Below are positions 7,190 to 27,653 of a stretch of DNA of 28,305 nt, piece after piece. The stretch lies in assembly GCA_043827405.1 (NCBI GenBank), contig JBDRPD010000107.1:1-28305 (forward strand). The letters are read 5' to 3'. This DNA comes from Elusimicrobiota bacterium. GTDB taxonomy: Bacteria > Elusimicrobiota > Elusimicrobia > UBA1565. Position 1 is the first letter of the stretch, and the number at the start of each line of letters is the position of its first letter. The notes beneath the pieces were generated by a model. It made no database searches and was not told where the DNA came from. It worked only from the letters and a program-made list of their open reading frames with translations. The position numbers and the translations under genes were made by a program.

Positions 7190-8665
7190 TCAGTCGGACG
7201 CCGGGTAAGCCGGCTTTCTTCGGCCCTGCAGGAAGTGCAGGTAGTAGATGATCCAGCGAGGGAAATTTCTCGCGAAGTGCTCCCAGCCGAAATAGAGGCT
7301 GATCGCGCTCGATCCCCAACGCAGGAGGAATAAATGCGAGTAGAGCCGCGAGAAAGGAAGCCGGATCAGAAGCGGCACCAGCGGGCGCAGGATCGGGAAA
7401 GCGACGACGAGGGAGAATAGTTTGGCGAGGTTCTCGATGCGGCGTTTGGTCGCGGCCTCCTTGAACCGTATCGCCGTGCGCAGGTAGGTGTTGTGGGGAG
7501 CTTCCGCCGCGTTCCGTTCGAGCAGGCCCGCCCGGGCGGCGATCGCGGCGAGTTCGGTCTTCGGATAGGGGTACACGAGACGCGCGTTGGCGACGCTGGG
7601 ACGCAGGCGGAGGTTGAGGTCCAAGGTCTTCATATCTACGGAGAGCGGATCATCTACCGGCAGACCGACCAGATTTTGGGTGATTAACCGGATCCCCTGC
7701 CGATGGAGTTCTTGCGCGGCTTGCACGATCGTCTCGTTGGATACTCGCCGCTTTAGTACCTTTTCGGCCGCCTCGTTGTCTCCGGTCTCGACGCCCATGA
7801 AGACGCCGCGGCAGCCGGCTCGTTTTAGCTGGCGGATGTTGCGCCTTGACGCGAGGTTCGGGCGGATGTTGCACAAGAAACCGATCCCGACCTCCCGGGG
7901 GAAACGCTCGGCGAATTCCTCGAGCCAGCCCGGAGGTTTGATAAGAAAGGTGTCGTCTACGACCAGGGCCCGTGTTAGGCCGCGATCTTTCTGCACCGCA
8001 CGGAATTCCCGGATCATGCCGGAAACGCTGCGATAGCGGAGCATGGAGCCCTTGCCCTTCATCATGGCGTTGTAGACGTGATTAAAGCAGTAGGTGCATG
8101 GATAGGGGCAGCCTCTCATCGCGGCGAAGCACCGCAGCAGATCGGCGCCGATTCGGGAATCCGCGGCGGAGGCCAAGGCGCGGTCCGGCAGCGGGAGCTC
8201 GTCGAGGTTCTCGATGAGCGGCGCCAAATCGTTGACGACGATCTTCCCGCCCGTTTTGAACCGGAAGTTCTTTGTTCGGGTAAAATCCCGCCCCTCTTCC
8301 ATGGCCGCCAGCATATCCCGGAATGCGTAGTCTCCCTCGCCGACGCAAACGGCATCGACCCCCGCCTCTCCGATGAGGTCGGGGTTGAAGGTTGGATGGG
8401 GACCGCCGAATACGGCGAAAAAATCGAGATGACGCTTCAGGTCGCGGTTGATGCGCAGGTGGCTGTGCTCCTCTCCCGTCATAATGGAATAGGCGATCAC
8501 GCCGGGTGAAAACGCCCGGACCCGGGAGAGGATCTCCTCGCCCGACAGGCCCCAGGTGAACAAGAGGCGGACGTCGTGTCCTTGGGGCTTGAGAACACCC
8601 GACAGGCACATCGGTCCGAGACGCTCGAACATCTTGGAGACGTTTAGGATGAAGAGTACTTTCAA
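7190..8665 (-). CDS. Cobalamin (B12)-binding radical SAM protein (class B methyltransferase-like)
   Basis: Probable TTG start at 8665 (MKVLFIL) after GGGGAAG. B12-domain motifs VFGGPHPT and VCVGEGD, LDELPLPDR, RGCPYPCTYC (CxxxCxxC), VDDTF and MGVETG. The 769-aa ORF-track version overlaps the opposite-strand gene and is over-extended. Confidence 0.9.
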   Translation of the reverse strand: MKVLFILNVSKMFERLGPMCLSGVLKPQGHDVRLLFTWGLSGEEILSRVRAFSPGVIAYSIMTGEEHSHLRINRDLKRHLDFFAVFGGPHPTFNPDLIGEAGVDAVCVGEGDYAFRDMLAAMEEGRDFTRTKNFRFKTGGKIVVNDLAPLIENLDELPLPDRALASAADSRIGADLLRCFAAMRGCPYPCTYCFNHVYNAMMKGKGSMLRYRSVSGMIREFRAVQKDRGLTRALVVDDTFLIKPPGWLEEFAERFPREVGIGFLCNIRPNLASRRNIRQLKRAGCRGVFMGVETGDNEAAEKVLKRRVSNETIVQAAQELHRQGIRLITQNLVGLPVDDPLSVDMKTLDLNLRLRPSVANARLVYPYPKTELAAIAARAGLLERNAAEAPHNTYLRTAIRFKEAATKRRIENLAKLFSLVVAFPILRPLVPLLIRLPFSRLYSHLFLLRWGSSAISLYFGWEHFARNFPRWIIYYLHFLQGRRKPAYPASD

Positions 8666-8718
8666 TCTTCCCCGCTTTGCGGACTGCGATAGGCTAGCGG
8701 GAATCCCCGGAAAAATCA

Positions 8719-8748
8719 ATGACACCCGGCCGCCGCAATCGCTATACT
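8719..8748 (+). promoter_or_regulatory. Putative sigma70 promoter for the radical SAM pair
   Basis: ATGACA (8719-8724), 18 bp, TATACT (8743-8748), within the divergent intergenic gap. Confidence 0.5.
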
Positions 8749-8773
8749 GGATTAGGACCTGCGGAAGCCCGCC

Positions 8774-9709
8774 ATGGACTGGAAATGCGTCGAATTCACC
8801 ATCTGCTACCGCTGCGATGCGGACTGCGTTTTCTGCAGCCATACCCGCCGCATAGAGCGCTTCGCCAAGCATCCGGTGGCGGCCAAGGATATCGCCGCCA
8901 AGCTTGCGGAAAAAAAGGCAGCCGGCTACAACCATGTCACGTTTACGGGCGGCGAACCCACGCTCTATCCCAAGTTCGATAAGCTGCTGGAGATCGCCAA
9001 GCTCCTCGGCTACCGTACCCGCGCGGTCACCAACGGCCGGGCTTTGGCGGGCGCGGATTATCGTGCGCGGACGCTGCCGCACCTCGATGAGCTGTGCTTC
9101 TCCATCCACGGCGCGGACGCCAAGGCGCATGACCGCATGACGGGCTCGCTGGGGGGGTGGCGGCTGATGCGCGACGCCCTGGATGCGGTATGCCGCGAGA
9201 AGCCGGAGCTCGCGGTGTTCGTCAATGCCGTCGCCACGCGCCTGAACCTCGACGAGCTGGCGCCGATCGCCGCCTGGATCAAGGATTATGCGCCGGTGCG
9301 CGAGTACTGGATATCGGCCTTGGTCCCGCAGGGCGCGGGACGCGATCGCTTCGCCGAGCTCGCCCCGCGCAACGCGGAGGTAATGGAACGGGCGGCCGGT
9401 ATCGTGCGGGCCGCGGGGCGCGTCGCAGTGCGCTTCTACGGCTTCCCGCTCTGTGTGCTCGGGGAATTCCGCGAGCGGGCGACCGATTACGCGCGCCACC
9501 CCGCCGTCGCCGTTTATCGCGGGCTCCGCAAGGACGGGATGCCCGACCTGCGCGAAGCGGAGAGCAAGAAGACCGATCCGCCCAAGGTGCGGACCGATAA
9601 GTGCGCGGGCTGCGCGCTGGCCAACCGCTGCGGCGGGCTATGGCGCGACTACTACAATAAGTTCGGCGACACCGAAGTGGCGCCGGTCAGGGCGGGGGCC
9701 GAGGTCTGA
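8774..9709 (+). CDS. Radical SAM protein with a C-terminal Cys motif (HxsC/SPASM-twitch-like)
   Basis: CDADCVFC, FTGGEPT, VTNG, SIHG...HD, FPLC and C-terminal CAGCALANRCGG. Confidence 0.88.
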   Translation: MDWKCVEFTICYRCDADCVFCSHTRRIERFAKHPVAAKDIAAKLAEKKAAGYNHVTFTGGEPTLYPKFDKLLEIAKLLGYRTRAVTNGRALAGADYRARTLPHLDELCFSIHGADAKAHDRMTGSLGGWRLMRDALDAVCREKPELAVFVNAVATRLNLDELAPIAAWIKDYAPVREYWISALVPQGAGRDRFAELAPRNAEVMERAAGIVRAAGRVAVRFYGFPLCVLGEFRERATDYARHPAVAVYRGLRKDGMPDLREAESKKTDPPKVRTDKCAGCALANRCGGLWRDYYNKFGDTEVAPVRAGAEV

Positions 9710-10701
9710 TGGGCAACTCCGCGGCCGGCCGGCAGATGGCGGGGCTGCTCTCGCCCAAATTCGGCGCGGTCAAGCGGCTCGAGTTTCATATGTCGTATGC
9801 CTGCAGCCAGAAATGCGTCTTCTGCTCCGAGAGTGTGCGCATGAAGACCCATCAGCGCAGCCCCCTTTCTCTCGAGGAGATGGCGCGGGTCGCGCTGCGC
9901 AAGCGCAAGGAGGGCTGTGAGCATATCACCTTTGTGGGCGGAGAGCCCACGGTGGTGCCGCAGTTCCTGGATTTCCTCAAGGTCACCAGGAAATTGGGCT
10001 ACAAGACCCTGCTGATTACCAATGGCGGGCGCCTCGCCGATCCCGCCTTCGCCGCGCAGGTTCTGCCGCGCCTCGATGAGATCGTGCTGTCTATTCACGG
10101 CCATACGCCCGAGCTGCATGATGAGCTGACCGGCAGGAAGGGCAGCTTCGCCAAGCTGATGACCGTATTTGAGCGCATAGCCCAGGCCGGGTCCCGCCCG
10201 TTCACCATGACCAATACCGTGGTCCTCAAGCGGAATATCGGACCTGTCCGGGAGATCGTTGATTTTCTCACCCGGCTGCCGGCGGTCGAGCACTGCCTGC
10301 TGTCCAATATCGCCCCGGATGGGAGGGCGCTTGAGGACTACCTCAAGCAGGCGATCCGCATCAAGGAGTTGGGCGATTTGGCGCCGGAGTTTTCGCGCCT
10401 GGCGGCGGAGCGCAAGACGGCATTGCGCTATTTTGGGATGCCGTTATGCGTACTGGGGCCCGCCTGGCGGGATTCCAATGATCTGTACTGGAATCCGCGC
10501 ACCAATGTGGAAAGGGCGGTTGTGGGGGGTGAGGTCGGGCTCGAGGATACCTGGAGCTATACGCCCGAGCGAATGCGGTATTTCCCTGAAAAATGCGGCG
10601 AATGCGGCCTTCGTGACCAGTGCTGGGGTCTCTTTCGGGAGTATTATGACCGCTTCGGCGACGAAGAACTGACTCCCGTCGGACCGGGAGAGGCCGTTTA
10701 A
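9709..10701 (+). CDS. Radical SAM protein, paralog of the upstream gene
   Basis: CSQKCVFC, FVGGEPT, ITNG, SIHG...HD, MPLC and C-terminal CGECGLRDQCWG. TGATG overlap with the previous gene. Confidence 0.88.
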   Translation: MGNSAAGRQMAGLLSPKFGAVKRLEFHMSYACSQKCVFCSESVRMKTHQRSPLSLEEMARVALRKRKEGCEHITFVGGEPTVVPQFLDFLKVTRKLGYKTLLITNGGRLADPAFAAQVLPRLDEIVLSIHGHTPELHDELTGRKGSFAKLMTVFERIAQAGSRPFTMTNTVVLKRNIGPVREIVDFLTRLPAVEHCLLSNIAPDGRALEDYLKQAIRIKELGDLAPEFSRLAAERKTALRYFGMPLCVLGPAWRDSNDLYWNPRTNVERAVVGGEVGLEDTWSYTPERMRYFPEKCGECGLRDQCWGLFREYYDRFGDEELTPVGPGEAV

Positions 10702-10706
10702 GGCCC

Positions 10707-10734
10707 TTGACTCGATTTTGGTCGTGACTATAAT
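10707..10734 (+). promoter_or_regulatory. Near-consensus sigma70 promoter
   Basis: TTGACT (10707-10712), 16 bp, TATAAT (10729-10734). Strong SD GGAGGTGG before ATG10769. Confidence 0.7.
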
Positions 10735-10768
10735 AGTAGGGCGGTATTGTACTGGGGAGGTGGCGCCC

Positions 10769-11938
10769 ATGAGGGCTGTTCTAGCGATTTTTTTTGTCGT
10801 TTCACTCTGCGGCTTAGCCGTTCCCTCCAGCGCCCAGACTTCCGGAGATTCGATTCAGTTTGACCGGTTTTACTACAACTGGACCGCCAAAGCGCGCATT
10901 ATAATCAAGTCGCCGGGCTCCAACCTCAACCGCAGTCTGCGCGACGTCATCGGCAGCGGCAAGAACGGACGCATCAGCATTCGGACCCGCAAGAGCCAGC
11001 TGGCGAATTACCGTTTTGTGGAGACCGGCGAGAATACCGGGGTATTTCTCGGCGTGATTCAGCTGACGGGTTTCCCGCATGATATCGACGGCGACGGGGT
11101 CAGCGACATAGATCCCCGGACCGGCGGCAAGGGGCCCACGGATGGACGCATTCCGATCGCCGAACGCGGCGACGGTTTAACGGTCTACTGGCAGCCCGGC
11201 AGCGGTCTGGCCAAGCCGATCTGCGACGACAAAAACTACGGCAATTCGCGGGCGGATATCGGCTGGGATCCGGCCGCCCGCGCCCAGAACCGGGGCGACT
11301 GCATCGCGAAAGAAAAGGCGCCCAAAGAAGCGGCCCCGATCACCCAAACCGTGCCGGTGGGGTGGACGCATGCCAAGCTGGAGTTTGACCGAACGGTATA
11401 TCCGATAGGATCCATCGCCCGGATTCGGGTCGAGGATATCGACATGAACCTCAATCCCGACAAGCAGGATACCGTTAAGCTGTTCGTGTTTACCGAGTCG
11501 GACATAACCGGCGTCCAGCTGACGGCGTTCGAAGACAGCAAAAATCCCGGGGTGTTCGAGGCGCGCGTTCTGCTGACCGATCAGAAGGACCTGAGCGGCG
11601 CCGGCGAGGGAAGCCTGTTCAAAGATGAGGAGCGGCCGGGAAGCGCGAGTCTGCGCGCCACATCGCAGGTCAAGGTTATCGCGATGTATGAGGATCGGAC
11701 CTTGCCTAAGCCGTATGCCAAAAGCGGCGTAAACAAGATTCAGCGGCAGGCTAAAATGTCGGCCTACAGCATACAGCAGAATCAGCAGACCGCGAATTTA
11801 GCGCAGAATGTCCCGGCGGGCGCTGTATTGGTGCCGACCAACGACCCCTATACTCCGTACAAGGTGAGCGATAAGTGTCCGCCCGGCATGACTCCCATCC
11901 CCCATGAGGGCACCCAAATGTGCGTACCCAACGGTTGA
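10769..11938 (+). CDS. Secreted protein with two tandem Ig-like domains resembling thaumarchaeal S-layer protein domains
   Basis: Signal peptide MRAVLAIFFVVSLCGLAVPSSA. Internal duplication FDRFYY...NLN...ETGENTGVF versus FDRTVY...DMNLN...EDSKNPGVF. Motifs LTGFPHDIDGDG, GPTDG and YEDRTLPKPY match recalled Nitrosopumilus S-layer sequence. Confidence 0.7.
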   Translation: MRAVLAIFFVVSLCGLAVPSSAQTSGDSIQFDRFYYNWTAKARIIIKSPGSNLNRSLRDVIGSGKNGRISIRTRKSQLANYRFVETGENTGVFLGVIQLTGFPHDIDGDGVSDIDPRTGGKGPTDGRIPIAERGDGLTVYWQPGSGLAKPICDDKNYGNSRADIGWDPAARAQNRGDCIAKEKAPKEAAPITQTVPVGWTHAKLEFDRTVYPIGSIARIRVEDIDMNLNPDKQDTVKLFVFTESDITGVQLTAFEDSKNPGVFEARVLLTDQKDLSGAGEGSLFKDEERPGSASLRATSQVKVIAMYEDRTLPKPYAKSGVNKIQRQAKMSAYSIQQNQQTANLAQNVPAGAVLVPTNDPYTPYKVSDKCPPGMTPIPHEGTQMCVPNG

Positions 11939-11954
11939 GGTAGGAGCACCCGCG

Positions 11955-11996
11955 AGCGATCTGACCGGCCGCCTTCAGGGCGGCCGGTTCGCTTTT
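11955..11996 (+). terminator. Rho-independent terminator
   Basis: 10-bp stem ACCGGCCGCC/GGCGGCCGGT with loop TTCAG, outer AGCGA/TCGCT pairing, followed by TTTT. Confidence 0.7.
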
Positions 11997-12815: not shown

Positions 12816-13054
12816 TGGCGATTACGGTGGACGTAGAGATCGGCGGGCTGCTCGCCAAGCCCCAAGGCAAGAGCGCGGTGCGGCCGACGCTTGAAAACGG
12901 CGCCGTGGTGCGCGATATGCTGGCCGCGATAGGCTTCAAAAAGGAGCATATCCCCCGCATCGTGGTGTCGGTTAACGGCACGGTTCGCAAACTGGATTTT
13001 GACCTGCGGGACGGCGACATTATTAAGCTGTCGATCCTGGTGGGGGGAGGCTGA
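12815..13054 (+). CDS. MoaD/ThiS family ubiquitin-like sulfur carrier
   Basis: 79 aa, with VSVNG, LRDGDII and C-terminal VGGG. TAATG overlap with moeB. Confidence 0.88.
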   Translation: MAITVDVEIGGLLAKPQGKSAVRPTLENGAVVRDMLAAIGFKKEHIPRIVVSVNGTVRKLDFDLRDGDIIKLSILVGGG

Positions 13055-13061
13055 GCGCGGC

Positions 13062-14441
13062 ATGGCCCGGACTTTGATCAAGGATATTCATACTCTCGTC
13101 ACCATGGACGGGCAGGCGCCGCAGAGCGGGGTCGATCTGCTTATCGAAGACGGCAAGGTCGCCGCGATAGCCGATAATATCGCGGCGCAGCCGGAAGATG
13201 AGATCCTCGACGGCCGCTGGCGGGCGGTCTATCCCGGCTTCATCAATACCCATCACCATCTCTACCAGACCCTTACCCGCAATATTCCCAAGGTGCAGGA
13301 CGCCAAGCTTTTCGACTGGCTGATCGCCCTTTATGAGATCTGGCGCGAGCTGGGTCCCGAAGCGGTGGAGGTGAGCACGAAAGTGGGTCTGGCCGAGCTG
13401 CTGCTCTCCGGCTGCACCACGACGACGGACCATTTCTACGTATTTCCCAAGAGCGCGCCGGAAGAATTTATCGACATCGAGATCGATACCGCCCGCGCCA
13501 TGGGCATGCGCTTTCATCCGACGCGCGGGAGCATGAGCCGGGGCCGCTCCGCGGGCGGACTGCCGCCCGACGACGTGGTGCAGACGCCGGAGGCGATTTT
13601 GCGCGACTGCGAGCGGGTTATCGCCAAGTACCATGATCCGCGGCCCTTCTCGATGTGCCGCATCGCTTTGGCGCCCTGCTCGCCCTTCTCGGTGACTACC
13701 GAGCTGCTCAAGGAGACGGCGGTGTTCGCGCGGGAGAAGGGAGTGCTGCTGCATACCCATTTATGCGAGACCAAGGATGAGGAGCAGTTCTGCCTCGAGA
13801 CGGTGGGCAAGCGGCCGCTGGACTACATGGAAGATGTGGGGTGGGTCGGACCCGATGTCTGGTACGCCCACGGCATCTACTTCAGCGATGATGAGATCAA
13901 GCGCCTGGCCGCGACCCGGACCGGGGTGGCGCATTGCCCGGTCTCCAATCTGCGGTTGGGATCCGGGATCGCCAAGGTCCCGTTGATGATGGAGGCGGGC
14001 ATGCGCGTGGGCTTGGCCGTCGACGGCAGCGCCAGCAACGATTGCTCCGGCATTCTGCGTGAGATGCAGACCGCGCTCCTGGTGCACCGGGTCGGCACCG
14101 GCGTCACGGCCATGCCGCCGAAAAAAGTTCTCGAGCTGGCGACTTTGGGCGGCGCGCGGATTTTATGCCATCCTGAGCTGGGAACGCTCAAGCCCGGAAG
14201 CGCCGCGGACCTCGCCGCCTTCCGGCTGGACCGGGTGGATTTTGCGGGCGGCATGCATGATCCCGCGTCGGCGGTGCTGTTCTGCGGTTCGGGGATACGG
14301 GCGGATTTTACCGTGGTCGCGGGCAAGGTGCTGGTCAAAGACGGCAAGGTCGCGGGGCTCGATGAGGAAGAGCTCTTCCATAAGGCCAATAAGGTTTCGG
14401 AGAATATGCTCAGGAAGGCCGCCGACAAGGCGGCCGTCTAA
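13062..14441 (+). CDS. Metal-dependent amidohydrolase, 8-oxoguanine deaminase/SsnA-like purine deaminase
   Basis: PGFINTHHHLYQ, HPTRGSMS...GGLPPD, APCSPFSV, HTHLCE, AHCPVSN and AVDGSASND. Confidence 0.85.
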   Translation: MARTLIKDIHTLVTMDGQAPQSGVDLLIEDGKVAAIADNIAAQPEDEILDGRWRAVYPGFINTHHHLYQTLTRNIPKVQDAKLFDWLIALYEIWRELGPEAVEVSTKVGLAELLLSGCTTTTDHFYVFPKSAPEEFIDIEIDTARAMGMRFHPTRGSMSRGRSAGGLPPDDVVQTPEAILRDCERVIAKYHDPRPFSMCRIALAPCSPFSVTTELLKETAVFAREKGVLLHTHLCETKDEEQFCLETVGKRPLDYMEDVGWVGPDVWYAHGIYFSDDEIKRLAATRTGVAHCPVSNLRLGSGIAKVPLMMEAGMRVGLAVDGSASNDCSGILREMQTALLVHRVGTGVTAMPPKKVLELATLGGARILCHPELGTLKPGSAADLAAFRLDRVDFAGGMHDPASAVLFCGSGIRADFTVVAGKVLVKDGKVAGLDEEELFHKANKVSENMLRKAADKAAV

Positions 14442-14455
14442 ATGAGGAGGATCGG

Positions 14456-15325
14456 ATGAGAGTTACTGATTTCAAGATTCCCACGCGGATCGAGGAGGCG
14501 AGGCGTCAGCTCAAGGGACTGGGGAATTCCGGATTTTTCCTGGCCGGCGGGACCTCGCTCGTCTTCAATAAAGGCAAGGCGGGCCGCGTCGCGGTGGATA
14601 TCTCGCGGCTGGGCCTCGATAAGATCAAGAAAGAGGGCCGCGGTTTCATGATCGGCGCGAATGCGCGGATCGCGGATCTCCAGGAGTATCACGCCAATGG
14701 CTGGGTCCTCGACCGGGTGGCGCATGACTTCGTCACCCAGCAGATACGCAATATCTGCACCATCGGCGGCAACGTCGCGTCGATCTTCCGCTGGAACGAC
14801 TTTCCGGTGGCGCTGATGGTGCTCGACTGCGAGCTGACCATCCAGGGCAGGAAAAAGCAGAAGGTGAGCGGCGAAGAATACTTCAAGTCCCAGCCGCGGC
14901 GCTTCTACGCCGACCAGGGCATACTCACTTCGATCAAGGTCGGAGCGCTGCCCGCCGGTACCGGTTTCGGCTACCGCAAGGAGCTCAAGACCGCGGCGGA
15001 CTTCAGCATGGTCACGGCCGCGGCGGTCGCCGAGCTCGACGGCGGGAAGATCAAGAGCCTGCGCGTCGCCGCCGGTTCGGCCCTGCCCTTTCCCCGGCGG
15101 CTGACCGCGGTCGAAAAGCTGCTTACCGGCGTCGAGGTGCCCAAGGGCTGTCTATGCGAGGGCGCGTTTATGGAGCAGGTCAAAGCGGGCATCGCGGATA
15201 TTCCCTGGAAGGGATATGTCGGCCTGAGCGATGCGTACGCCGCCCAGCTCGCGGCGGTGACGGTGCGCGATGCGATTGCCGCCGCGGTGAAGGAAGTCCG
15301 GTGCGGAGGCAAGAACAATGGCTGA
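14456..15325 (+). CDS. Xanthine dehydrogenase family FAD-binding subunit (YgfM/XdhB/CoxM-like)
   Basis: FLAGGTSL and QIRNICTIGGNVA. SD GAGGAGG. Confidence 0.88.
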   Translation: MRVTDFKIPTRIEEARRQLKGLGNSGFFLAGGTSLVFNKGKAGRVAVDISRLGLDKIKKEGRGFMIGANARIADLQEYHANGWVLDRVAHDFVTQQIRNICTIGGNVASIFRWNDFPVALMVLDCELTIQGRKKQKVSGEEYFKSQPRRFYADQGILTSIKVGALPAGTGFGYRKELKTAADFSMVTAAAVAELDGGKIKSLRVAAGSALPFPRRLTAVEKLLTGVEVPKGCLCEGAFMEQVKAGIADIPWKGYVGLSDAYAAQLAAVTVRDAIAAAVKEVRCGGKNNG

Positions 15326-15794
15326 GAAGAAAACGGTCTCTTTTACTCTTAACGGCCGCAAGCGGCAGTTTAAATGCCGGCCCAACGAGAGCCTGCTCGA
15401 GCTGCTGCGCCGGGCGGGCTATAAGGGCGTCAAGAAAGGCTGCTCGGAAGGAGTCTGCGGCGTCTGCACCGTGATCATGGACGGCCGGGCGGTCTACTCC
15501 TGCATCCTGCGCGCCTTTCAGGCCGAGGGGCGGAGCCTGCAGACCATCGAACATATGGGCGACTTTGAGAAGCCGCATGCGTTTCAGCGCGCCCTGGTGG
15601 ATGAAGGCGCGGTCCAGTGCGGCTTCTGCACGCCCGGCATGGTGATGGCGGCCGAGGCGATGCTCCGGAAGGACCCGCAGCCGAGCCCCGAGAAGACCAA
15701 GGTGTACATGGATGGGGTCCTCTGCCGCTGTACGGGCTACGAGAAGATTTGGGGCGCGATCCGCAAGGTGGTTGCCGCCAAGGGGGGGAAGTAA
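15318..15794 (+). CDS. Xanthine dehydrogenase family 2x[2Fe-2S] subunit
   Basis: GCSEGVCGVC...SC and QCGFCTPG...CRCTGY. Confidence 0.93.
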   Translation: MAEKKTVSFTLNGRKRQFKCRPNESLLELLRRAGYKGVKKGCSEGVCGVCTVIMDGRAVYSCILRAFQAEGRSLQTIEHMGDFEKPHAFQRALVDEGAVQCGFCTPGMVMAAEAMLRKDPQPSPEKTKVYMDGVLCRCTGYEKIWGAIRKVVAAKGGK

Positions 15795-15795
15795 T

Positions 15796-18117
15796 ATGGC
15801 GCCGCGGAAATTCAAGATCGTCAACCATTCGGCCGAGAAGAAGGACGCCCTCTCTCTGGCGCTCGGCAAGCCGATGTATGTCGCGGACCTGGCGCCCGCC
15901 GACGTGCTTTACGCCAAGGTGCTGTGGAGCCCGCATGCGCATGCGCGCATCATCTCGCTCGATGCCAGCGCGGCCGAGAAGATGCCGGGCGTGGAAGCGG
16001 TCATCCACCACGGCAATGTGCCGCATATTCCGCATACCACGGCGGGACAGGGCTATCCCGAGCCGTCCCCGTACGACACCTACATGTTCGACAATAAGGT
16101 GCGCTACGTCGGAGATCGCGTGGCCGCGGTGGCGGCGACGTCCCCCGAGCTCGCCGAAGACGCGCTCGACGCGATCAAGGTGAAGTATAAGGTCCTCGAG
16201 CCGGTGCTGTCGATCGACGCCGCCTTGAAGAAAGGCGCCCCGATCATCCATGATCAAAAAGAAGCCAGCATACCGATCCCGGTGCCTTATGAGCCGAAGA
16301 AGAATATCGCGGCCCGCGTCGGCATGGATCACGGCGATGTGGACAAGGCGCTTAAGGACTCATTCGTCTCTCTGGACTATACGTATGAGACGCCCTACGC
16401 CCAGCACACTCCGATGGAGCCGCATGTCTCCATGGCCTATATCGATGCGTCGGGGCGGCTGGTGATCGTCACCAGCACCCAGGTGCCGTTTCATGCCCGG
16501 CGCATCGCGGCGCAGACGCTCGATATCCCGGTGCGCCAGATCCGCGTCATCAAGCCGCGCATCGGCGGCGGTTTCGGCACCAAGCAGGAGGTTCTGCTCG
16601 AGGACCTCGTCGGCATGCTGGCGCTCAAAACCAAGAAGGCGGTCATTCTGGAGTATACCCGCGAGGAGGAGTTCGTCAGCGCCCGCACGCGCCACCCGCA
16701 GCGGGTGCGCCTGCGCACCGGCATCACCAAGGACGGCCAGGTCACGGCGCTCGACATGGACGTGATCTCCAATACCGGCGCCTACGGCTCGCATGCGCTG
16801 ACCGTGGTCTGCAACTGCGGCAGCAAGGCCCTGCCGCTCTACCGCTCCAAAAACGTGCGCTTTAAGGGAACCACGGTCTATACCAATATGCCCGTGGCCG
16901 GAGCCTATCGCGGCTACGGCGCCACCCAGGCGCAGTTCGCTCTCGAAGTGCAGATGGACGAGATGGCCGAGGCCATCGGCATGGACTCGCTCAAGCTGCG
17001 CATCAAGAACCATATCCGCAAGGGCGAGAGCTCGCCGGTGTTCCAGGCTCTCGGCGAGGGCAAAGAGGGCGTCGAGCAGACGATCGGTTCCTGCGAGCTC
17101 GACAAGTGCATCCGCGAGGGCGCCAAGTGGATCGGCTGGAAGAAAAAGAAGCCTCATACCCAGAAGACCGGACGCTTCCGCCGCGGCATCGGCGTGGCGA
17201 CGCTCATGCAGGGCTCGAGCGTCCCGGAGATCGATATGGGCGCCGCCTCGATCAAGATGAACGATGACGGCTCCTTCAACCTGCTTATGGGCGCGACCGA
17301 CCTGGGCACCGGCAGCGATACCATCCTCGCCCAGATCGCGGCCGAAGTTCTGTGCACGTCGCTGGACAACATCATCGTCTATTCCTCGGATACCGACCTG
17401 ACGCCTTTCGATGTCGGCGCCTACGCTTCGAGCACGACCTACCTTACCGGCTCGGCGGTGCAGAAGACGGCGATGAAGGTCAAGAAACAGATCATCGACG
17501 TCGCCGCCGAGATGACGGGCAAGCGTCCGTCCGAGCTTGCGCTCAAAGACGCCAAGGTCGTCGCCAAGGACGGGAGCAAGGAGGTGACCTTCAAGCAGGT
17601 CGCCCTCTACTCCCTCTACGAGGCCAATCAGTTCCAGATCGGCGACATGGCTTCGCATATCACCCATAAGTCGCCGCCGCCCTTCTCAGCGCACTTCGCC
17701 GAAGTGGAGGTGGATACCTTCACCGGCAAGGTGCGGTTGCTGCGCTATGTCGCGGCCGTCGACTGCGGCACCGCCATTAACCCGGCGCTGGCGGAAGGCC
17801 AGACCGAGGGCGGGGTCATGAACGGCATCAGCTACGCGCTGACCGAGGGCTACCTGTTCAACAAGCTGGGCAAGGTGACTAATGCCAGCTTCCTGGACTA
17901 CCGCATCTTCTCGCTGCGCGACATGCCGGAGATGAAGACCATTCTGATCCCGAGCTATGAGAAGACCGGGCCCTTCGGCGCCAAGAGCGTCTCGGAGATC
18001 TGCATTAATGGGCCGCTGCCCGCGATCTCCAACGCCATCTATAACGCCGTGGGCGTGCGCATGCGCGAGGCGCCGTTCACGCGCGAGCGCGTATGGCGGG
18101 CCCTGCAGGAGAAATGA
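15796..18117 (+). CDS. Xanthine dehydrogenase family molybdopterin-binding subunit (XdhD/XdhA-like)
   Basis: SPHAHARI, PMEPH, STQVPF, IGGGFGTKQE, AYRGYG, DLGTGS, AEGQTEGG and catalytic-Glu motif GAKSVSE. ATG15796 follows the Fe-S subunit stop. Confidence 0.93.
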   Translation: MAPRKFKIVNHSAEKKDALSLALGKPMYVADLAPADVLYAKVLWSPHAHARIISLDASAAEKMPGVEAVIHHGNVPHIPHTTAGQGYPEPSPYDTYMFDNKVRYVGDRVAAVAATSPELAEDALDAIKVKYKVLEPVLSIDAALKKGAPIIHDQKEASIPIPVPYEPKKNIAARVGMDHGDVDKALKDSFVSLDYTYETPYAQHTPMEPHVSMAYIDASGRLVIVTSTQVPFHARRIAAQTLDIPVRQIRVIKPRIGGGFGTKQEVLLEDLVGMLALKTKKAVILEYTREEEFVSARTRHPQRVRLRTGITKDGQVTALDMDVISNTGAYGSHALTVVCNCGSKALPLYRSKNVRFKGTTVYTNMPVAGAYRGYGATQAQFALEVQMDEMAEAIGMDSLKLRIKNHIRKGESSPVFQALGEGKEGVEQTIGSCELDKCIREGAKWIGWKKKKPHTQKTGRFRRGIGVATLMQGSSVPEIDMGAASIKMNDDGSFNLLMGATDLGTGSDTILAQIAAEVLCTSLDNIIVYSSDTDLTPFDVGAYASSTTYLTGSAVQKTAMKVKKQIIDVAAEMTGKRPSELALKDAKVVAKDGSKEVTFKQVALYSLYEANQFQIGDMASHITHKSPPPFSAHFAEVEVDTFTGKVRLLRYVAAVDCGTAINPALAEGQTEGGVMNGISYALTEGYLFNKLGKVTNASFLDYRIFSLRDMPEMKTILIPSYEKTGPFGAKSVSEICINGPLPAISNAIYNAVGVRMREAPFTRERVWRALQEK

Positions 18118-19280
18118 AAGGGCTCGTCTACCTGGATAACGGCGCCACCTCCTTCCCCAAACCGGAAGAGGTGTATACCTTCATGAACCAGTGGTACCGG
18201 CAGCTGGGGGTTAACCCCGGCCGCTCGGGCTTCGACATGTGCCTGGAAGCGGGCGAGGTGGTCGACGGAACGCGCAAGCTGCTGACTAAGTTCTTCAACG
18301 GCGGGAATTCGGAGCGGCTCTGCTACTCCTACAACTCGACCGACGCCCTTAACCTGGTCATCTTCGGGATGCTTAAAGCGGGCGATCATGCGATCACCAC
18401 GACCGTCGAGCATAACTCGGTGCTGCGTCCGCTCTATCACCTGAGCCGGGACAGCGGCGTGGACGTGGATTATGTTCCGTTCGACGCCAAAGGCTTCGTC
18501 GACCCCGGCGACTTCAAGAAGCTGTTTAGGCCCAATACCAAGCTGGTCATCGTCAATCATGCGTCCAACGTTATCGGCACCATCCAGCCGGTCAAGGAGA
18601 TCGGAAGGCTGTGCCGTGAGCGGGGCATTCCCTTTGCCATCGACGCTTCGCAGTCCGCGGGCAAAATCCCGATCGACATCGAGGAGATGAATATCGACAT
18701 CGTCGTCTTCACCGGCCATAAGTCGCTGATGGGGCCGACCGGCATCGGCGGCCTCTATGTGCGGGAAGGGATCGATGTCCGCCTTACCCGCGCCGGCGGA
18801 ACCGGGGTGCGCTCGGCGGTGCGGACGCATCTCGAGGAGTATCCGTTTCGGCTTGAGTACGGGACGCCCAATACCATCGGCATCGCGGGGCTTAACGCGG
18901 GAGTCCGGTGGCTGCTCAAGGAGGGGATTGAGAAGATCCACGCCCATGAGATGCGGCTGACCGCGAAGCTGCGCGACGGGCTTGAGGATATTCCCGGCGT
19001 CACCCTCTACTGCCAGGATGACCTGAAGAACCATATCGGCGTCCTGCTGTTCAACGTCGACGGATTTGAGGCGCTGAATACGGGGACCATGCTCGATGTG
19101 GATTACAATATCGCCTGCCGTACGGGGCTGCATTGCGCGCCGCTGGTCCATGAGCGGCTGGGGACCGCCAAGATCCACGGCGCCGCGCGCTTCGGCGTCG
19201 GACCCTTTAACACCGATCAGGATATCGAGACGGCGATCGGCGCGGTCAAGGAGATCGCCGCCGCCCGGGCGGGCAAATAG
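18114..19280 (+). CDS. Class V aminotransferase, cysteine desulfurase/selenocysteine lyase family
   Basis: YLDNGATSFPKP, EHNSV, DASQSAG, PLP-Lys motif FTGHK and RTGLHCAP. ATGA overlap with the Mo subunit. Confidence 0.9.
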   Translation: MKGLVYLDNGATSFPKPEEVYTFMNQWYRQLGVNPGRSGFDMCLEAGEVVDGTRKLLTKFFNGGNSERLCYSYNSTDALNLVIFGMLKAGDHAITTTVEHNSVLRPLYHLSRDSGVDVDYVPFDAKGFVDPGDFKKLFRPNTKLVIVNHASNVIGTIQPVKEIGRLCRERGIPFAIDASQSAGKIPIDIEEMNIDIVVFTGHKSLMGPTGIGGLYVREGIDVRLTRAGGTGVRSAVRTHLEEYPFRLEYGTPNTIGIAGLNAGVRWLLKEGIEKIHAHEMRLTAKLRDGLEDIPGVTLYCQDDLKNHIGVLLFNVDGFEALNTGTMLDVDYNIACRTGLHCAPLVHERLGTAKIHGAARFGVGPFNTDQDIETAIGAVKEIAAARAGK

Positions 19281-19281
19281 C

Positions 19282-20556
19282 ATGCGCTTCGCGCTGCTTT
19301 CACTTCTTCTTCTGCTGCCCGTTTCCGTGCAGGCGCAAAGCAGTCTCGAGGAGCGCGTCCAGGCGCTTGAAGAGCGCTTGGCGCTCACCGAGAAGCTGAG
19401 CTCGATCGGCGCCCACTCCGACGTTCTTATCGCCCGCTGGGAGCATGGTCTGCGCCTGGAAAGCCCGGACGGCACGGTCATGCTCAATCTCGGCGGGCGG
19501 CTCAATGTCGACTGGGCGTTTATGAGCGAGGACGACGCGCTGGAGCGGCGCTTCGGCAATTTTGACGACGGGGTGCAGTTTCGCCGGGCGCGGCTGTACC
19601 TGAGCGGCACCTTGTACCGGCGCATTATCTTCAAGACCGCTTTCAACTTCAATGCCGGCGCAGCCGAGTATAAGGACCTTTTCATCGGCATCAAGGACCT
19701 GCCGTATGCCGGGACCTTCATGACCGGCCACTTCAAGGAGCCCTTCGGCTTCGAGCAGCTGACCAGCGGCAAGTTCCTCATGTTCATGGAGCGCGGCCTG
19801 ACCGACGCGCTGGTCCCCGGCCGCAATGCGGGCATCGCCTTCTCCAATACCTTGGCGGACAAGAGCGCCACCTGGCAGGCGGGATTTTTTCGCGACACCG
19901 ATAATTTCGGCCGCAGCACCCCCGGCGGCGCCTACGCCTTTACCGGCCGCATGACCGTCCTCACCCGCTATGAGGACGGCGGCCGCCGGCTCGGCCACTT
20001 CGGCACCTCGTTCAGCATCCGTAATCCGCAGCACGATACGGCTTCCTTCGCGGCCGCCCCGGAGGCCGGCCTGGCCCCGGATGTCATCGCGACGGGGGAT
20101 GTCCCCGCCGAAAACGTGCGTTTGGGCGGTATCGAGGTCGCCGCGGTAAGAGGGCCGCTCTCGGTGCAGAGCGAGGCGGTGCTGGGGCGCATCATCGGCG
20201 CCAATGGAGCGAAGGACCCGCTGCTGTGGGGGCATTATGTCGGCGCCGCCTATTTCCTGACCGGCGAGCATCGTACCTACAATAAGGAGCTCGGCGTCTT
20301 CAGCCGGGTGAATCCTTCGCGCAATTTCGGCGCGGACGGCGGCTGGGGGGCCTGGGAGGTCGCGGCGCGCTTATCGCGGCTCGATTTCGATGATATCGAC
20401 GAGGGCGTGCGCGGCGGCATGCTTTACGACGTCACCTTGGGCGTCAACTGGTATCTGCGTTCCAATACCCGCATGACCTTGAACTATGTCTACGCCAATC
20501 CGCGCGGGCCGGGCCAGGCGAATATGGTCCTGACGCGCTTCCAGTTGGATTTTTAA
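19282..20556 (+). CDS. OprO/OprP-family anion-selective outer-membrane porin
   Basis: Signal peptide plus coiled-coil leader, FRRARL, GHFKEPFGFEQLTS, FMER, YFLTGEHR, GAWEVAAR, GVNWY and C-terminal RFQLDF. Confidence 0.88.
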   Translation: MRFALLSLLLLLPVSVQAQSSLEERVQALEERLALTEKLSSIGAHSDVLIARWEHGLRLESPDGTVMLNLGGRLNVDWAFMSEDDALERRFGNFDDGVQFRRARLYLSGTLYRRIIFKTAFNFNAGAAEYKDLFIGIKDLPYAGTFMTGHFKEPFGFEQLTSGKFLMFMERGLTDALVPGRNAGIAFSNTLADKSATWQAGFFRDTDNFGRSTPGGAYAFTGRMTVLTRYEDGGRRLGHFGTSFSIRNPQHDTASFAAAPEAGLAPDVIATGDVPAENVRLGGIEVAAVRGPLSVQSEAVLGRIIGANGAKDPLLWGHYVGAAYFLTGEHRTYNKELGVFSRVNPSRNFGADGGWGAWEVAARLSRLDFDDIDEGVRGGMLYDVTLGVNWYLRSNTRMTLNYVYANPRGPGQANMVLTRFQLDF

Positions 20557-20619: not shown

Positions 20620-21117
20620 ATGAGAGCATTCGCGAACTACTGCGCCGCCTTGCTGTTGACCGCCGCGCTGTCCACCTATGTCTACGCGCACTGCCAGGTG
20701 CCCTGCGGCATCTACGGCGACCAGCTGCGTATCGAGACGCTGATGGAGCACTATGTCACCATCGCCAAATCGGCCAAGCAGATCCGCGAGCTGTCCAAGG
20801 CGAAGGACAAGGACTACAACCAAGTCGTGCGCTGGGTAAACAACAAGGAAAAGCATGCCGACGAGGTCGCCCATATCGTGACCTACTACTTCATGGCGCA
20901 GCGGGTGAAGCCGCCCAAGGAAGGCGGCGAGGCGGCGATCCACAGCTACCGCAGGAAGTTCGTGCTGCTGCATGAGATGCTGATCGAGGCGATGAAGAGC
21001 AAGCAGTCGGCGGAGGATGAGCCCGTGCAGCAGCTGCGCAAGCTGACCCTGCAGTTTCACGAGGCCTATTTTACCGACGCCGACAAGAAGCACCTGGAGC
21101 AGCACCAACTGAAGTGA
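20620..21117 (+). CDS. sodN: Nickel-containing superoxide dismutase precursor
   Basis: Ni-hook HCQVPCGIY directly after the hydrophobic leader ending VYA, plus RWVNNKEKHA and YFMAQRVK. Confidence 0.92.
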   Translation: MRAFANYCAALLLTAALSTYVYAHCQVPCGIYGDQLRIETLMEHYVTIAKSAKQIRELSKAKDKDYNQVVRWVNNKEKHADEVAHIVTYYFMAQRVKPPKEGGEAAIHSYRRKFVLLHEMLIEAMKSKQSAEDEPVQQLRKLTLQFHEAYFTDADKKHLEQHQLK

Positions 21118-22561: not shown

Positions 22562-23995
22562 TTATTTCTCGGAGGCCTTTCTTCTCCTCTTGAACGCCCA
22601 CCGGGCTCCGCGGCCATGACCCCACGTTTCGACAAGACCAAAGTTCTTAAGCAGGCTCAATTCTCTTCGCAGGGTTCGCTTGTCGGATGACTTTCCGATT
22701 AAGGTCCCCAGTTCTCTCAATGACAACGTTCCGCCCGAGCCCAGCGCGCCCAGGATTTTCCGCTGGCGGGCGGTCAGGTCTTGGCCGATCCTCTTAGGCG
22801 GGTGGTAGCGGCTCGGCTTGAAGCGGATGATCAGGGTGCCGGCCGACTGCTCGATCTCCGGTCGGGGAAGGCCGGCCCTCTGGGCGAGCTCGGCAATCTT
22901 CTGGGTGCCGCGGCCCCAGGTCTCGATGATCCCTCGTTTGTAGAACACGTTGGCGATGATCGGGTTCCAGGGGCGAGACTCATGCCGCTTGAAGAGATCG
23001 TCGACGATGAGGCCGAAATGCAGTTCTCCCGGCGAGGTTATCTCAAGGCGGTCGTCGTAGATGGCGACGCCGATTGAGCCGCCGCTGATGGAATAGTCAC
23101 GGTGGCAAATGGCGTTCGCCAGGGCTTCCCTCAGCGCCGACGGCGGATACAGCGGATCGTCCTCACGCTCGAAAAGATTGGGGACGATGCGGCCGGCGAC
23201 AGGCAAGTGATCCCGCATGAACCGCTCGGCTCTCAACAATAGGTCGAAGGCGTTGCCGTGGTACTGCCGGTTGTCGATGAATTCCGTCTTGTCCGTCCCC
23301 TCGAACCGGGCGAGGCGCAGGAGGCACTGCGGATAGTCGGGGAGCAGGCGCTCCGAGTCTGCAAACAACGCCACGGCGGCGCGAAGAATCTGCCCGTCCT
23401 TTATCAGCGTCAGCCCGCGCAGGATCTCCTTGGGATCGCGCGTGCCGGGGTCTTCCGAGCGGCCGCGCCGGATAGCCTCTTCGAGCGTCCGTACGATCTC
23501 GGCTTTGTTTAGATCCTCGACGGCCCATTCTGGCGCCGGCTGGTTTTCCCAGCGTTCGGTGTTGTGGAGCCGCTCTAGCAGCAGGCGGTTGTACTCGTCG
23601 CGCGAGAGCTCGAAGTTCGCGGCGCCGCTTCGCCGATAGGCTTTGCCGTGGAAGGAATAGGGGTATTGGAACCCGCGCTCGACAGCGGCGACGACGACCT
23701 CCTTGCCGCCTCCTACGGCGACGCGGTCGATGGTTGGGAACACCGCCGGCTCGATACAGTTGAACTCCGTAGCGACATCCTCGAGCGTCTTGTCCGAGAC
23801 GTCCTGGCCGCGCACTTCTTGGGCCGGGGTCACGCCGAATAGGACGCGACCGCCCCGGTGGTTGAGCATGGCGCAGATCGTCCTTGCGGCATCCGTGCGC
23901 CGGCCGGTCGTGCTCTTAAACTCCTTGATTTCGGACTCGCCGTGGGCGGCCCAGGCCTGAATCTGTTCTGAGGTAAGGGGCATTTCCTGGGGCAT
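22562..23995 (-). CDS. AlbA_2 (Schlafen-like) + HATPase_c_4 ('RecG C-terminal-like') + winged-HTH protein
   Basis: GESEIKEFK, ICAMLNHRGGRVLFGV, YPPSALREALANAICHRDY, IYDDRLEITSPG, NPIIANVF..GIIETWGRG and C-terminal HTH ending GHGRGARW. Start is ATG23995 or ATG23983. Confidence 0.88.
   Translation of the reverse strand: MPQEMPLTSEQIQAWAAHGESEIKEFKSTTGRRTDAARTICAMLNHRGGRVLFGVTPAQEVRGQDVSDKTLEDVATEFNCIEPAVFPTIDRVAVGGGKEVVVAAVERGFQYPYSFHGKAYRRSGAANFELSRDEYNRLLLERLHNTERWENQPAPEWAVEDLNKAEIVRTLEEAIRRGRSEDPGTRDPKEILRGLTLIKDGQILRAAVALFADSERLLPDYPQCLLRLARFEGTDKTEFIDNRQYHGNAFDLLLRAERFMRDHLPVAGRIVPNLFEREDDPLYPPSALREALANAICHRDYSISGGSIGVAIYDDRLEITSPGELHFGLIVDDLFKRHESRPWNPIIANVFYKRGIIETWGRGTQKIAELAQRAGLPRPEIEQSAGTLIIRFKPSRYHPPKRIGQDLTARQRKILGALGSGGTLSLRELGTLIGKSSDKRTLRRELSLLKNFGLVETWGHGRGARWAFKRRRKASEK
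23808..23925. repeat. Copy 1 of an exact direct repeat of at least 118 bp
   Basis: Identical to 28188-28305 (offset 4380). Confidence 0.95.
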
Positions 23996-24076
23996 ATTAC
24001 TGGTACGAGCGACGGGCCGCGTAGTTCCATGGCTCACCATGCTCGCCGTCTGACCCATTTAGTAGAATCCCTGAGC

Positions 24077-26609: not shown

Positions 26610-26918
26610 GCGAGTGTTCATGCTCGGCCCCGACGTCGGCAGTTTGATTGGGATCGCTCGGAAGTCCGGTCACTCGTCCGCTATCGGCCGAGTGGGGCCG
26701 TGGGATCGAGACAGAGCCCCTGCGCTATGGTTTCTGGGCCTTGACCGAAGCTCGGGAGGGCCGGCGGGTTGCGCGCTGGCTGGGGGGGCTCTAATGTTTC
26801 CTACAAGTTGTACTGTCGGGTAGCCTTACTTGTAAGGATTGTCGCCACGGGACTAAAAGACAACGGCAGACTTATCCGCTATGTAGGTGAATTGGATCAT
26901 GGTTCCTCTGCCGTGGAG

Positions 26919-27653
26919 CTATTCGTTGTTGAGTGGACGGGCGAGCTCTTTTTGCATGTCCTTCAGGGCGGCATTCATCGCGCGTTCCATCAAGGACGAG
27001 TATCCTTTGACATCGTGTCCCCAGTTGTAATAGAAGCCTTGCCAGACACGAAAACTATCGGTATGTGCAAACTCCCAAATTAAATCTCCCGTCTTAACGT
27101 TCTTTAATTCAAGCTTAACTATAAAATCGCTCGTGCTTAGGCCTGCAGGCAAGCCGAGTAGCCAGAGGTACGGACCAGCTATCGAAAGCCCGTATGTTAT
27201 TACCTTGCCATTCCATTTTGTGGAAATGACCGTGCCAGTAAGTATCAAGTCAGCCCTATCCTTCTCTCCTCCGAAGGTGAAAAAGACATCCTTGAACAAT
27301 CCTGACCGTCGAATGCTTGTGGCGGCAGCTTTGGCCAGGTCTTCCGAAACATCGAATTGGAACTCGCGAACAGTGTTGAAAAAACGAGCGGCATCGGGTC
27401 GTTCATAAGTCATCCACCCATAGGGCATCAGGGGAACGAAGGAAAAGAAATATGTTCCCATTTGATTAATGTCACTTCGCCCTTCTTCAAATGGCATCAC
27501 GGCCACGACTAGGTTGTGGGTGGGCTTATCTGAAAGGCGAACGAGATTGGAGACTTTGTTCGGATAAACGAATTTTGCTGTCGTCCCGCACCCTGCGCTC
27601 GCAAGTATGCCGAGGACCAATAGGTTTATTGCCCGGAAACTGTTGTAGCGCAT
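26919..27653 (-). CDS. Hypothetical lipoprotein in a lower-GC segment
   Basis: MRYNSFRAINLLVLGILASAGC lipobox-like. AGGGGG SD before ATG27653. VVAVMPFEEGR and ADLILTGTV are typical of alpha/beta envelope lipoproteins. Confidence 0.75.
   Translation of the reverse strand: MRYNSFRAINLLVLGILASAGCGTTAKFVYPNKVSNLVRLSDKPTHNLVVAVMPFEEGRSDINQMGTYFFSFVPLMPYGWMTYERPDAARFFNTVREFQFDVSEDLAKAAATSIRRSGLFKDVFFTFGGEKDRADLILTGTVISTKWNGKVITYGLSIAGPYLWLLGLPAGLSTSDFIVKLELKNVKTGDLIWEFAHTDSFRVWQGFYYNWGHDVKGYSSLMERAMNAALKDMQKELARPLNNE

What the first reader, a model, noticed from the sequence alone, without database searches (positions are those of the whole stretch)
10769..11938. Bacterial secreted protein resembling the thaumarchaeal (ammonia-oxidising archaea) S-layer protein
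Seen: a stand-alone gene with a near-consensus promoter, a strong SD and its own terminator. It encodes a signal peptide, two related beta-rich domains, a Cys-pair insertion between them and a C-terminal CPPG...CVP Cys pair, with no TM anchor. Recalled knowledge: the motif order Y.WT.K..I.I..P..N / STR...L.NY..VETG..TG.F.G...LTGF.HD.DGDG...G.GPTDG...DGLTV / W.......YP.......RV.D.DMNL.P / SD..G..LT..E.....G.FE..V / YED.TLP.PY follows two consecutive Ig-like domains of the Nitrosopumilus S-layer protein. Inference: an archaeal surface module transferred across domains, adapted to high-GC codons and reused as a highly expressed bacterial surface or periplasmic protein. It appears much less acidic than the archaeal, ammonium-concentrating version.
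Basis: partly seen in the sequence, partly recalled or inferred. Interest (0 to 1): 0.8.

Follow-up and report, generated by a model that had tools for sequence, protein, structure and literature searches.

The report
Archaeal S-layer module in groundwater bacterium
A groundwater bacterium encodes a secreted protein built from two surface-layer domains otherwise typical of ammonia-oxidising archaea, most likely picked up by gene transfer and reused as a binding or scaffolding piece rather than as a cell coat or an ammonium trap.

Summary
The gene (10769-11938, 389 aa) is real and sits in an Elusimicrobiota genome. A contig from a second study links it to the upstream radical-SAM genes. Residues 24-332 match domains 8-9 of the Nitrosopumilus maritimus S-layer protein (E 5.9e-31; Z 25.5, rmsd 2.5 A).

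(1) Its nearest archaeal relatives are ~390-aa three-domain paralogues of ammonia-oxidising archaea (AOA), not the S-layer itself; trees keep it outside the S-layer group. (2) The Cys-pair insertion lies inside domain 8. (3) It is not an ammonium trap: net charge +2, and 1 of 11 simulated ammonium-binding residues kept.

The pair is rare in the host class (3 of 393 genomes). It has a small basic sister clade (P0102/P0237/P0238), and a sister genus has it fused to a family-wide secreted subtilisin. Best reading: an AOA-derived, probably calcium-stabilised Ig pair reused as an exported binding module. Transfer direction rests on distribution; the root is unresolved. Function and expression are untested.

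The parts
10707..10734 (+). Near-consensus sigma-70-type promoter TTGACT-16-TATAAT
   Evidence: 11 of 12 matches; one of 14 such sites in the genome; activity not tested
10754..10761 (+). Shine-Dalgarno GGGGAGGT, 7 nt before the ATG
   Evidence: read from the sequence
10769..11938 (+). Gene for the 389-aa secreted protein P0001; single copy in the genome
10769..10834 (+). Signal peptide, residues 1-22 (no canonical lipobox)
   Evidence: hydropathy 3.07; cleavage site read by eye, no SignalP available
10838..11368 (+). Ig-like domain homologous to S-layer domain 8 (residues 24-200, including the insertion)
   Evidence: the paper's first eight domains end at residue 1499
11081..11107 (+). D105-x-D-x-D-G-x-x-D113 loop, probable calcium site (inferred from the Dx[DN]xDG motif class, recalled)
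   Evidence: motif D-x-[DN]-G-D in 165 of 280 modules; kept in P0238 and P0117, absent in P0102, P0237 and P0235
11195..11338 (+). 48-aa insertion with Cys152 and Cys178 inside domain 8; the sister clade has a ~20-aa insertion without Cys at the same place
   Evidence: (low pLDDT, one helix)
11369..11764 (+). Ig-like domain homologous to S-layer domain 9 (residues 201-332), with conserved DxDMNLNPxxxD and a ~15-aa loop insertion
11765..11935 (+). Small C-terminal domain (helix plus four strands, Cys370 and Cys385) in place of the archaeal domain 10; no homologue identified
   Evidence: pLDDT 70.7 alone; best fold match only Z 4.1
11956..11996 (+). GC-rich hairpin plus TTTT, terminator-like
   Evidence: -28 kcal/mol; not listed by the consensus scan

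Best explanation
P0001 is a Sec-exported, unanchored protein of an Elusimicrobiota bacterium. Its core is the domain 8-9 Ig pair of AOA surface proteins (shown). An ancestor within this bacterial family most likely took the pair from an AOA, nearest to the ~390-aa three-domain paralogues (inferred from distribution and trees). It lost domain 10 and the acidic surface, kept the Asp-rich loops that probably bind calcium and stiffen the fold (inferred), and gained a disulfide-closed loop and a small C-terminal domain. It most likely works as a binding, adhesion or scaffolding module in the periplasm or at the surface. The same pair is appended to a secreted subtilisin in a sister genus, where C-terminal Ig domains typically aim or hold the enzyme (general knowledge). 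It is neither a complete S-layer protein nor an ammonium sieve. The ligand is unknown.
For: Fold and sequence match to S-layer residues 1364-1616 stands alone: Z 25.5, next 8.9. All 9 taxon-named homologues are Nitrososphaerota; Atlas structural neighbours of matching size are 80-100% archaeal. The pair is in 3 of 101 genomes of the host order and 3 of 393 of the class (where a fourth hit is a weak single domain); 1 of 401 in a phylum sample. In the fetched archaeal-type proteins the pair occurs in many architectures, 1 to 6 times per protein, so it is a portable module. Trees place the bacterial rows outside the S-layer-like group (93/96; 100/99) and join them with the subtilisin fusion (92/91; 86/84). 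The G000 orthologue of that subtilisin ends after the protease domain, and no other match among the 17 family genomes extends into the module. Charge equals the host's secreted-protein median. 1 of 11 simulated ammonium-binding residues kept.
Against: No function, ligand, location or expression was measured. Nesting inside the ~390-aa family is not significant (p-AU 0.18). It disappears when five rows (three GC-rich, two long) are dropped. With distant outgroups the sister trio falls outside all AOA rows (SH-aLRT 92, quick tree), so direction is not shown by the tree. Most 'AOA' labels and the taxon of P0102, P0237, P0238 and P0117 are inferred; only L011 gives a bacterial-looking context. Only 150 of 642 representative hits were seen. 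Related single domains are native to bacteria.
Confidence: 0.58

Rival explanations
1. It is a minimal S-layer or lattice protein of the bacterium, assembling on its own from two Ig domains plus the tail.
For: S-layer fold; stand-alone gene with one of the genome's 14 near-consensus promoters, a strong SD and a terminator; the related Ig type occurs in the anammox bacterial S-layer.
Against: Only 2 of the 10 domains, from the membrane-proximal and least ordered end of the archaeal protomer. No anchor. No match in 14 of the 16 other family genomes, and fused to a protease in the other two.
Confidence: 0.1
2. It is a recognition module aimed at AOA cells: it docks on or into the acidic archaeal S-layer by mimicry or charge complementarity, for attachment or predation, and the subtilisin fusion uses it to bring a protease to that coat.
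For: The charge is neutral to basic where the archaeal module is strongly acidic, with Lys at three positions that are ammonium-binding acids in NmSLP. The module was appended to a secreted subtilisin. The genome holds at least 5 such subtilases. The host is from groundwater.
Against: The charge equals the host's ordinary secreted proteins, so it needs no special cause. The module in the protease fusion is still acidic (pI 5.0). No evidence of predation by this lineage: passages of 10.1101/2023.11.21.568195 list Elusimicrobiota only as having very large genes. Co-occurrence with AOA was not examined.
Confidence: 0.12
3. No transfer from AOA: the bacterial clade is an old side branch of an Ig-repeat family shared by both domains, or came from another donor, and survives patchily.
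For: Outgroup-rooted quick tree puts the trio sister to all AOA-type rows. Domain-9-like repeats occur in an Actinomycetota protein, in the anammox S-layer profile and in another Elusimicrobiota genome.
Against: P0001 scores 98 and 61 bits against AOA domains but 5 or less and about 23 bits against the repeat proteins. The specific pair with its GFxHDxDGDG loop is shared with the AOA-type proteins among the sequences seen. Vertical descent needs loss from 390 of 393 class genomes. The outgroup branch is long, so attraction is likely.
Confidence: 0.17
4. Assembly or binning artefact: an archaeal gene stitched into a bacterial contig.
For: The genome is a metagenome assembly of 108 contigs; best hits are archaeal.
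Against: One contig of run X1 spans 8000-11856 with no difference; a contig of another study (X2) spans 8740-11339 with 29 differences in 2600 bases and even depth. Bacterial promoter and SD; GC3 0.74; only 30-35% identity to archaeal proteins; contamination 0.48%.
Confidence: 0.02

Closest known systems
Nitrosopumilus maritimus S-layer protein NmSLP (Nmar_1547; PDB 8C8K/8C8M; PMC11153153), domains 8-9
   Same: Same two Ig-like domains in the same order: 251 residues aligned to 1364-1616, rmsd 2.5 A, 35% identity; Asp-rich loops kept.
   Different: 2 domains instead of 10; no domain 10; two insertions and a new tail; net charge +2 against -211.7 for the whole NmSLP; 1 of 11 simulated ammonium-binding residues of this region kept; bacterial host.
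Uncharacterised ~390-aa Nitrosopumilaceae secreted protein (domain 8 + domain 9 + a third domain, Pfam PF28202 'SlaA-like' on part of them; e.g. P0028, P0076)
   Same: Signal peptide followed directly by the pair; best archaeal scores per domain; on the same side of the tree.
   Different: They end in a third Ig domain, are acidic (median pI 4.3 for 69 proteins), and lack the insertion and the tail. I found no study of their function.
Kustd1514-type anammox S-layer glycoprotein (NCBIfam NF052345) and actinobacterial Ig-repeat proteins such as P0105
   Same: Share the domain-9-type Ig repeat at low similarity: 33 bits for P0001, 48 for an AOA S-layer, 644 for P0105.
   Different: Far below the cut-off of 1400; long repeat arrays; no domain-8-type partner.

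Membership tests
AOA S-layer protein (NmSLP/SlaA type) | Ig-like domains homologous to NmSLP | tested here: met
AOA S-layer protein (NmSLP/SlaA type) | Long array of about ten Ig domains | tested here: not met
   389 aa, two domains; no other copy in the genome
AOA S-layer protein (NmSLP/SlaA type) | Strong net negative charge and acidic ammonium-binding residues | tested here: not met
   net +2, pI 8.2; 1 of 11 residues of Supplementary Table 2 kept, mapped by hand on the alignment
AOA S-layer protein (NmSLP/SlaA type) | Branches within the S-layer proteins | tested here: not met
   outside the S-layer-like group; grouping with P0131 rejected at p-AU 0.033; sister position to the whole group not rejected, p 0.18
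AOA S-layer protein (NmSLP/SlaA type) | Self-assembly into a lattice covering the cell | not testable with these tools
   needs microscopy or purified protein
~390-aa AOA three-domain paralogue family | Signal peptide then the domain 8-9 pair as best match | tested here: met
~390-aa AOA three-domain paralogue family | C-terminal third Ig domain (PF28202-like) | tested here: not met
   replaced by a 57-aa Cys-pair tail
~390-aa AOA three-domain paralogue family | Nested within the family in the tree | tested here: inconclusive
   nested; not; AU p 0.18
Kustd1514 anammox S-layer (NF052345) | Score above the curated cut-off of 1400 bits | tested here: not met
   33 bits

The most novel reading that the evidence does not exclude
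Free-living Elusimicrobiota captured a piece of the AOA S-layer and turned it against its source. The de-acidified domain 8-9 pair docks on AOA S-layers, alone as an adhesin (P0001 clade) or fused to a subtilisin that digests the coat (P0235). That would point to bacterial attachment to, or predation on, ammonia-oxidising archaea in groundwater through a stolen surface module.
Probability: 0.12. Interest if true: 0.85.

Novelty: new variant of a known kind. Interest (0 to 1): 0.46.

Why it matters
The structure paper searched for relatives only among archaea (BLAST against nr_arc). Five paper searches on S-layer homologues listed nothing on bacterial carriers of these domains; I saw mostly listings. 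The finding shows that domains 8-9 form a portable unit: it recurs in many AOA-type proteins, occurs in bacteria, and was appended to a protease. P0001 and its basic sisters are natural, de-acidified versions of the most membrane-proximal part of the ammonium-concentrating S-layer. They are small, probably soluble controls for asking what charge as against fold contributes to cation binding. If the module binds AOA surfaces it would reveal an unknown bacterium-archaeon interaction in the nitrogen cycle. If not, it is one more cross-domain transfer of an Ig module of unknown use.

Tried and rejected
Pfam and PHROGs gave no family for P0001. A homodimer prediction gave no answer (score 0.00, controls not folded): no evidence either way. 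No RNA holder was listed, so expression is untested. The tail was tested against an AOA C-terminal Cys-pair motif that it aligned with: score -1.0 bits, below many shuffles (16 motif rows, 2000 shuffles); rejected. Tail fold searches gave only weak matches (Z up to 4.1; Atlas TM 0.49-0.61 and no feature hit). The genome-contig scan with P0001 returned one locus, L006, with no open frame at the match; dropped as chance, and that scan cannot show absence. The metagenome scan with alignment A2 confirmed 1 of 108 pattern matches (L011). The AMO search of the genome found nothing, but nothing rang in the controls either, so it is uninformative. The AU test (trio plus five long S-layer rows, p 1e-4) is confounded because those rows are not a clade themselves; not used. 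The careful tree did not finish; its quick tree is what I cite. Cluster look-ups gave no taxon for P0102, P0117, P0237, P0238. Earlier-finding searches by sequence and by words were blank. The neighbouring genes (two HxsC-like radical SAM genes, a MoeB/ThiF gene, a purine-degradation cluster) show no link to the gene, and the contexts of L011 and L017 differ. Runs X3-X7 hold small shares; X3 and X4 gave only short pieces and are not used.

Full report
Observation. The ORF 10769-11938 (+) gives a 389-aa protein, P0001. It has a near-consensus promoter at 10707-10734, one of 14 such sites in the genome; some of the others precede genes that I recognise from memory as groES, hrcA and greA. It has an SD at 10754-10761 and a -28 kcal/mol hairpin with a short T run after the stop, which the consensus scan did not list. 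The N-terminus is hydrophobic, there is no later TM segment, and the Cys residues are at 14, 152, 178, 370 and 385. Pfam has no family for it.

Host and assembly. The window is a whole contig of a 4.33-Mb, 98% complete, 0.5% contaminated genome of about 63% GC. All taxon-named relatives among the best 120 hits of its ribosomal protein S3 are Elusimicrobia. The DNA is held by groundwater runs. A contig of run X1, possibly the source, spans 8000-11856 unchanged. A contig of run X2, from another study, spans 8740-11339 with 29 differences in 2600 bases, joining the upstream radical-SAM genes to the first half of the gene; a second X2 piece covers 11344-11956. No listed piece spans the whole stretch. 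GC3 is 0.74 (genome median 0.81, 17th percentile) and CAI 0.63 (median 0.69), within the range of three ribosomal genes, on crude gene calls. The gene is a resident bacterial gene.

Homology. phmmer against the PDB finds the N. maritimus S-layer protein at E 5.9e-31, with 25-142 on 1365-1483 and 192-318 on 1491-1602; the next hit is E 0.73. The AlphaFold model (pLDDT 79, alignment of 22) matches 8c8k at E 3.8e-27. It aligns over 251 residues to 1364-1616 at Z 25.5 and rmsd 2.5 A, against 8.9 for the next entry. PMC11153153 (parts 1-3 of 8 read, further passages, and part 1 of 2 of supplement 1) describes ten Ig domains, the first eight ending at 1499 and the ninth at 1616, the ninth forming the membrane-proximal base. 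P0001 is therefore domains 8 and 9. The Cys-pair insertion (143-190) lies before the last strand of domain 8, not between the domains. A 57-aa tail replaces domain 10. It folds as a small helix-plus-strands unit with no convincing match.

Nearest relatives. The length-matched search gave 81 other proteins, mostly ~390 aa at 27-35% identity; 8 carry a taxon, all Nitrosopumilaceae. These are signal peptide + domain 8 + domain 9 + a third domain (PF28202 'SlaA-like'). The unrestricted search gave 642 clusters, of which I saw 150; in them the pair occurs in many architectures and up to six times per protein. Per domain, P0001 scores 98 and 61 bits against the best ~390-aa proteins and 83 and 36 against a full S-layer protein (P0131, identity of P0131). 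Closer still is a small clade, P0238, P0237 and P0102 (43-51% identity). These are a signal peptide plus the pair only, basic, with a shorter insertion at the same site. One member's contig, L011, has 58% GC in the gene, a sigma-70-like promoter, an AAA_14-DUF4143 ATPase with a 47-52% match in G000, and what I recall as the start of a tRNA gene. I take the clade as bacterial, but no taxon is on record.

Distribution in the host's kin. The pair is in 3 of 41 relatives, 3 of 101 genomes of the order and 3 of 393 of the class; a fourth class hit (E 3.8e-11) is a single domain-9-like unit in a DUF11 protein. A phylum sample gave 1 of 401 with the single-protein query. These are 'not found in those searched'; many genomes are incomplete. 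The two other carriers (G009, G014, one genus) have the pair at the C-terminus of a secreted subtilisin (P0235, P0236; the G009 copy is cut by the contig end). The syntenic subtilisin of G000 (C32:43876-42593) stops after the protease domain. Among 17 family genomes, 16 have such subtilases, and only G009 and G014 match beyond residue ~420. The module was thus appended to an existing enzyme in one genus.

Trees. From 280 extracted pairs, subsets of 71, 62, 30 and 25 were used (near-duplicates were left out, and five GC-rich or long rows). P0001 always groups with its sisters (99-100 in three trees, 92). The subtilisin module joins them at 87, 92/91 and 86/84, but not. The S-layer-like group excludes them (99; 93/96; 100/99). 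Grouping with P0131 is rejected (p-AU 0.033); a position sister to the whole S-layer-like group is not (p 0.18). Nesting inside the ~390-aa family appears, is not significant (p 0.18), and is lost. With distant outgroups the four-row clade falls outside all AOA-type rows (quick tree). So 'derived from the S-layer protein itself' is disfavoured, and the donor and direction rest on distribution, not on a rooted tree. A wider family exists in bacteria: the anammox S-layer profile NF052345 hits P0001 at 33 bits and an Actinomycetota repeat protein at 644. P0001 scores only about 23 bits against those repeats.

Charge. Mature P0001 has net +2 and pI 8.2. 270 other modules have a median pI of 4.2, and 1 of 270 is above 7. 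A crude set of 432 host secreted proteins has median pI 8.6, 11.5% D+E and 12.8% K+R, the same as P0001, so the change may be plain drift to the host's norm. Supplementary Table 2 lists 11 simulated ammonium-binding residues in domains 8-9. I mapped them by hand, 7 directly and 4 by ungapped extension: D1394-N54, E1486-S145, D1487-G146, D1538-F239, D1549-Q250, D1572-K273, E1590-M306, E1592-E308, D1598-K314, D1604-G320, D1607-K323. One is kept. The Asp loops HDIDGDG and DIDMNLNPxxxD are kept. I infer calcium sites from the motif class (recalled) and from the paper's EGTA sensitivity; this was not tested.

How it most likely works. Shown: an exported-type, unanchored two-Ig protein of AOA-type fold, without the acidic surface, whose module also serves as a protease appendage in close kin. 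Inferred: Sec export to the periplasm or surface of a diderm cell (a porin gene lies in the window), two disulfides, calcium-stiffened domains, and a role in binding or scaffolding (0.58). Rivals: an old shared family or other donor (0.17), a module aimed at AOA surfaces (0.12), a minimal S-layer (0.10), an artefact (0.02).

Literature. Beyond the Nature paper I read passages only: PMC12153357, PMC7709395, PMC12175726, 10.1101/2023.11.21.568195, PMC6563490 and 10.1101/2025.08.23.671958. Eight searches were run; in the listings and passages I saw, none describes bacterial carriers of these domains or the ~390-aa paralogue. The Nature paper's BLAST was limited to archaea. Subscription papers and preprint supplements were not searchable, and the remaining supplements of PMC11153153 were not read.

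Verdict. A real, apparently undescribed cross-domain occurrence of an AOA S-layer-type module, with a small sister clade and a protease fusion. It is a new variant of known parts with no demonstrated function; interest 0.46.

Noticed in passing
L007:1461-6119, L008:1170-6113, L009:1308-6125, L010:1224-6113 (IMG/VR contigs): Four viral-collection contigs (34-37% GC) carry a full-length (about 1550-1650 aa) Nitrosopumilus-type S-layer gene. In L007-L009 it lies between the same conserved large ORFs, with differing S-layer sequences. This could be a virus-borne S-layer gene and a vehicle for the module. The flanking ORFs of L007 have no PHROG hit, so the viral nature was not confirmed here.
   Followed up: partly
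NCBIfam NF052345 on P0001, P0003, P0131, P0105: The anammox S-layer profile hits AOA S-layer-type domains (32-48 bits) and an Actinomycetota protein with 20 such repeats (644 bits), suggesting that anammox and AOA S-layers share an Ig-repeat type. PMC7709395 reported only Planctomycetes homologues.
   Followed up: partly
L017:4368-6260 (G014) and L003:364-2022 (G009): Secreted subtilisin with the domain 8-9 pair fused at its C-terminus; the orthologue in G000 lacks it.
   Followed up: yes
P0117 (294 aa, 3 members): Another signal-plus-pair-only protein, near neutral (pI 6.5), closer to the ~390-aa family than to P0001; possibly a separate bacterial acquisition; taxon unknown.
   Followed up: partly
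window 8774-10701: Two tandem, overlapping radical-SAM genes whose best profiles are HxsC4 and HxsC, below cut-off; I did not look for a substrate peptide.
   Followed up: no
window 11827-11956: Run X1 holds two variants of this stretch (6 differences in 130 bases), i.e. strain variation in the C-terminal tail.
   Followed up: no
window about 13020-19280: Amidohydrolase (8-oxoguanine deaminase profile above cut-off) followed by three genes that look like a xanthine-dehydrogenase-type enzyme and a PLP enzyme (the latter names recalled from the sequences).
   Followed up: no
window 26500-28305: GC falls to 49-53% at the contig end. A short ORF at 27947-28249 repeats part of the protein at 22562-24058, hinting at a duplicated or mobile piece.
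   Followed up: no
window 20620-21117 and about 19264-20556: Nickel superoxide dismutase and an O/P-type porin.
   Followed up: no
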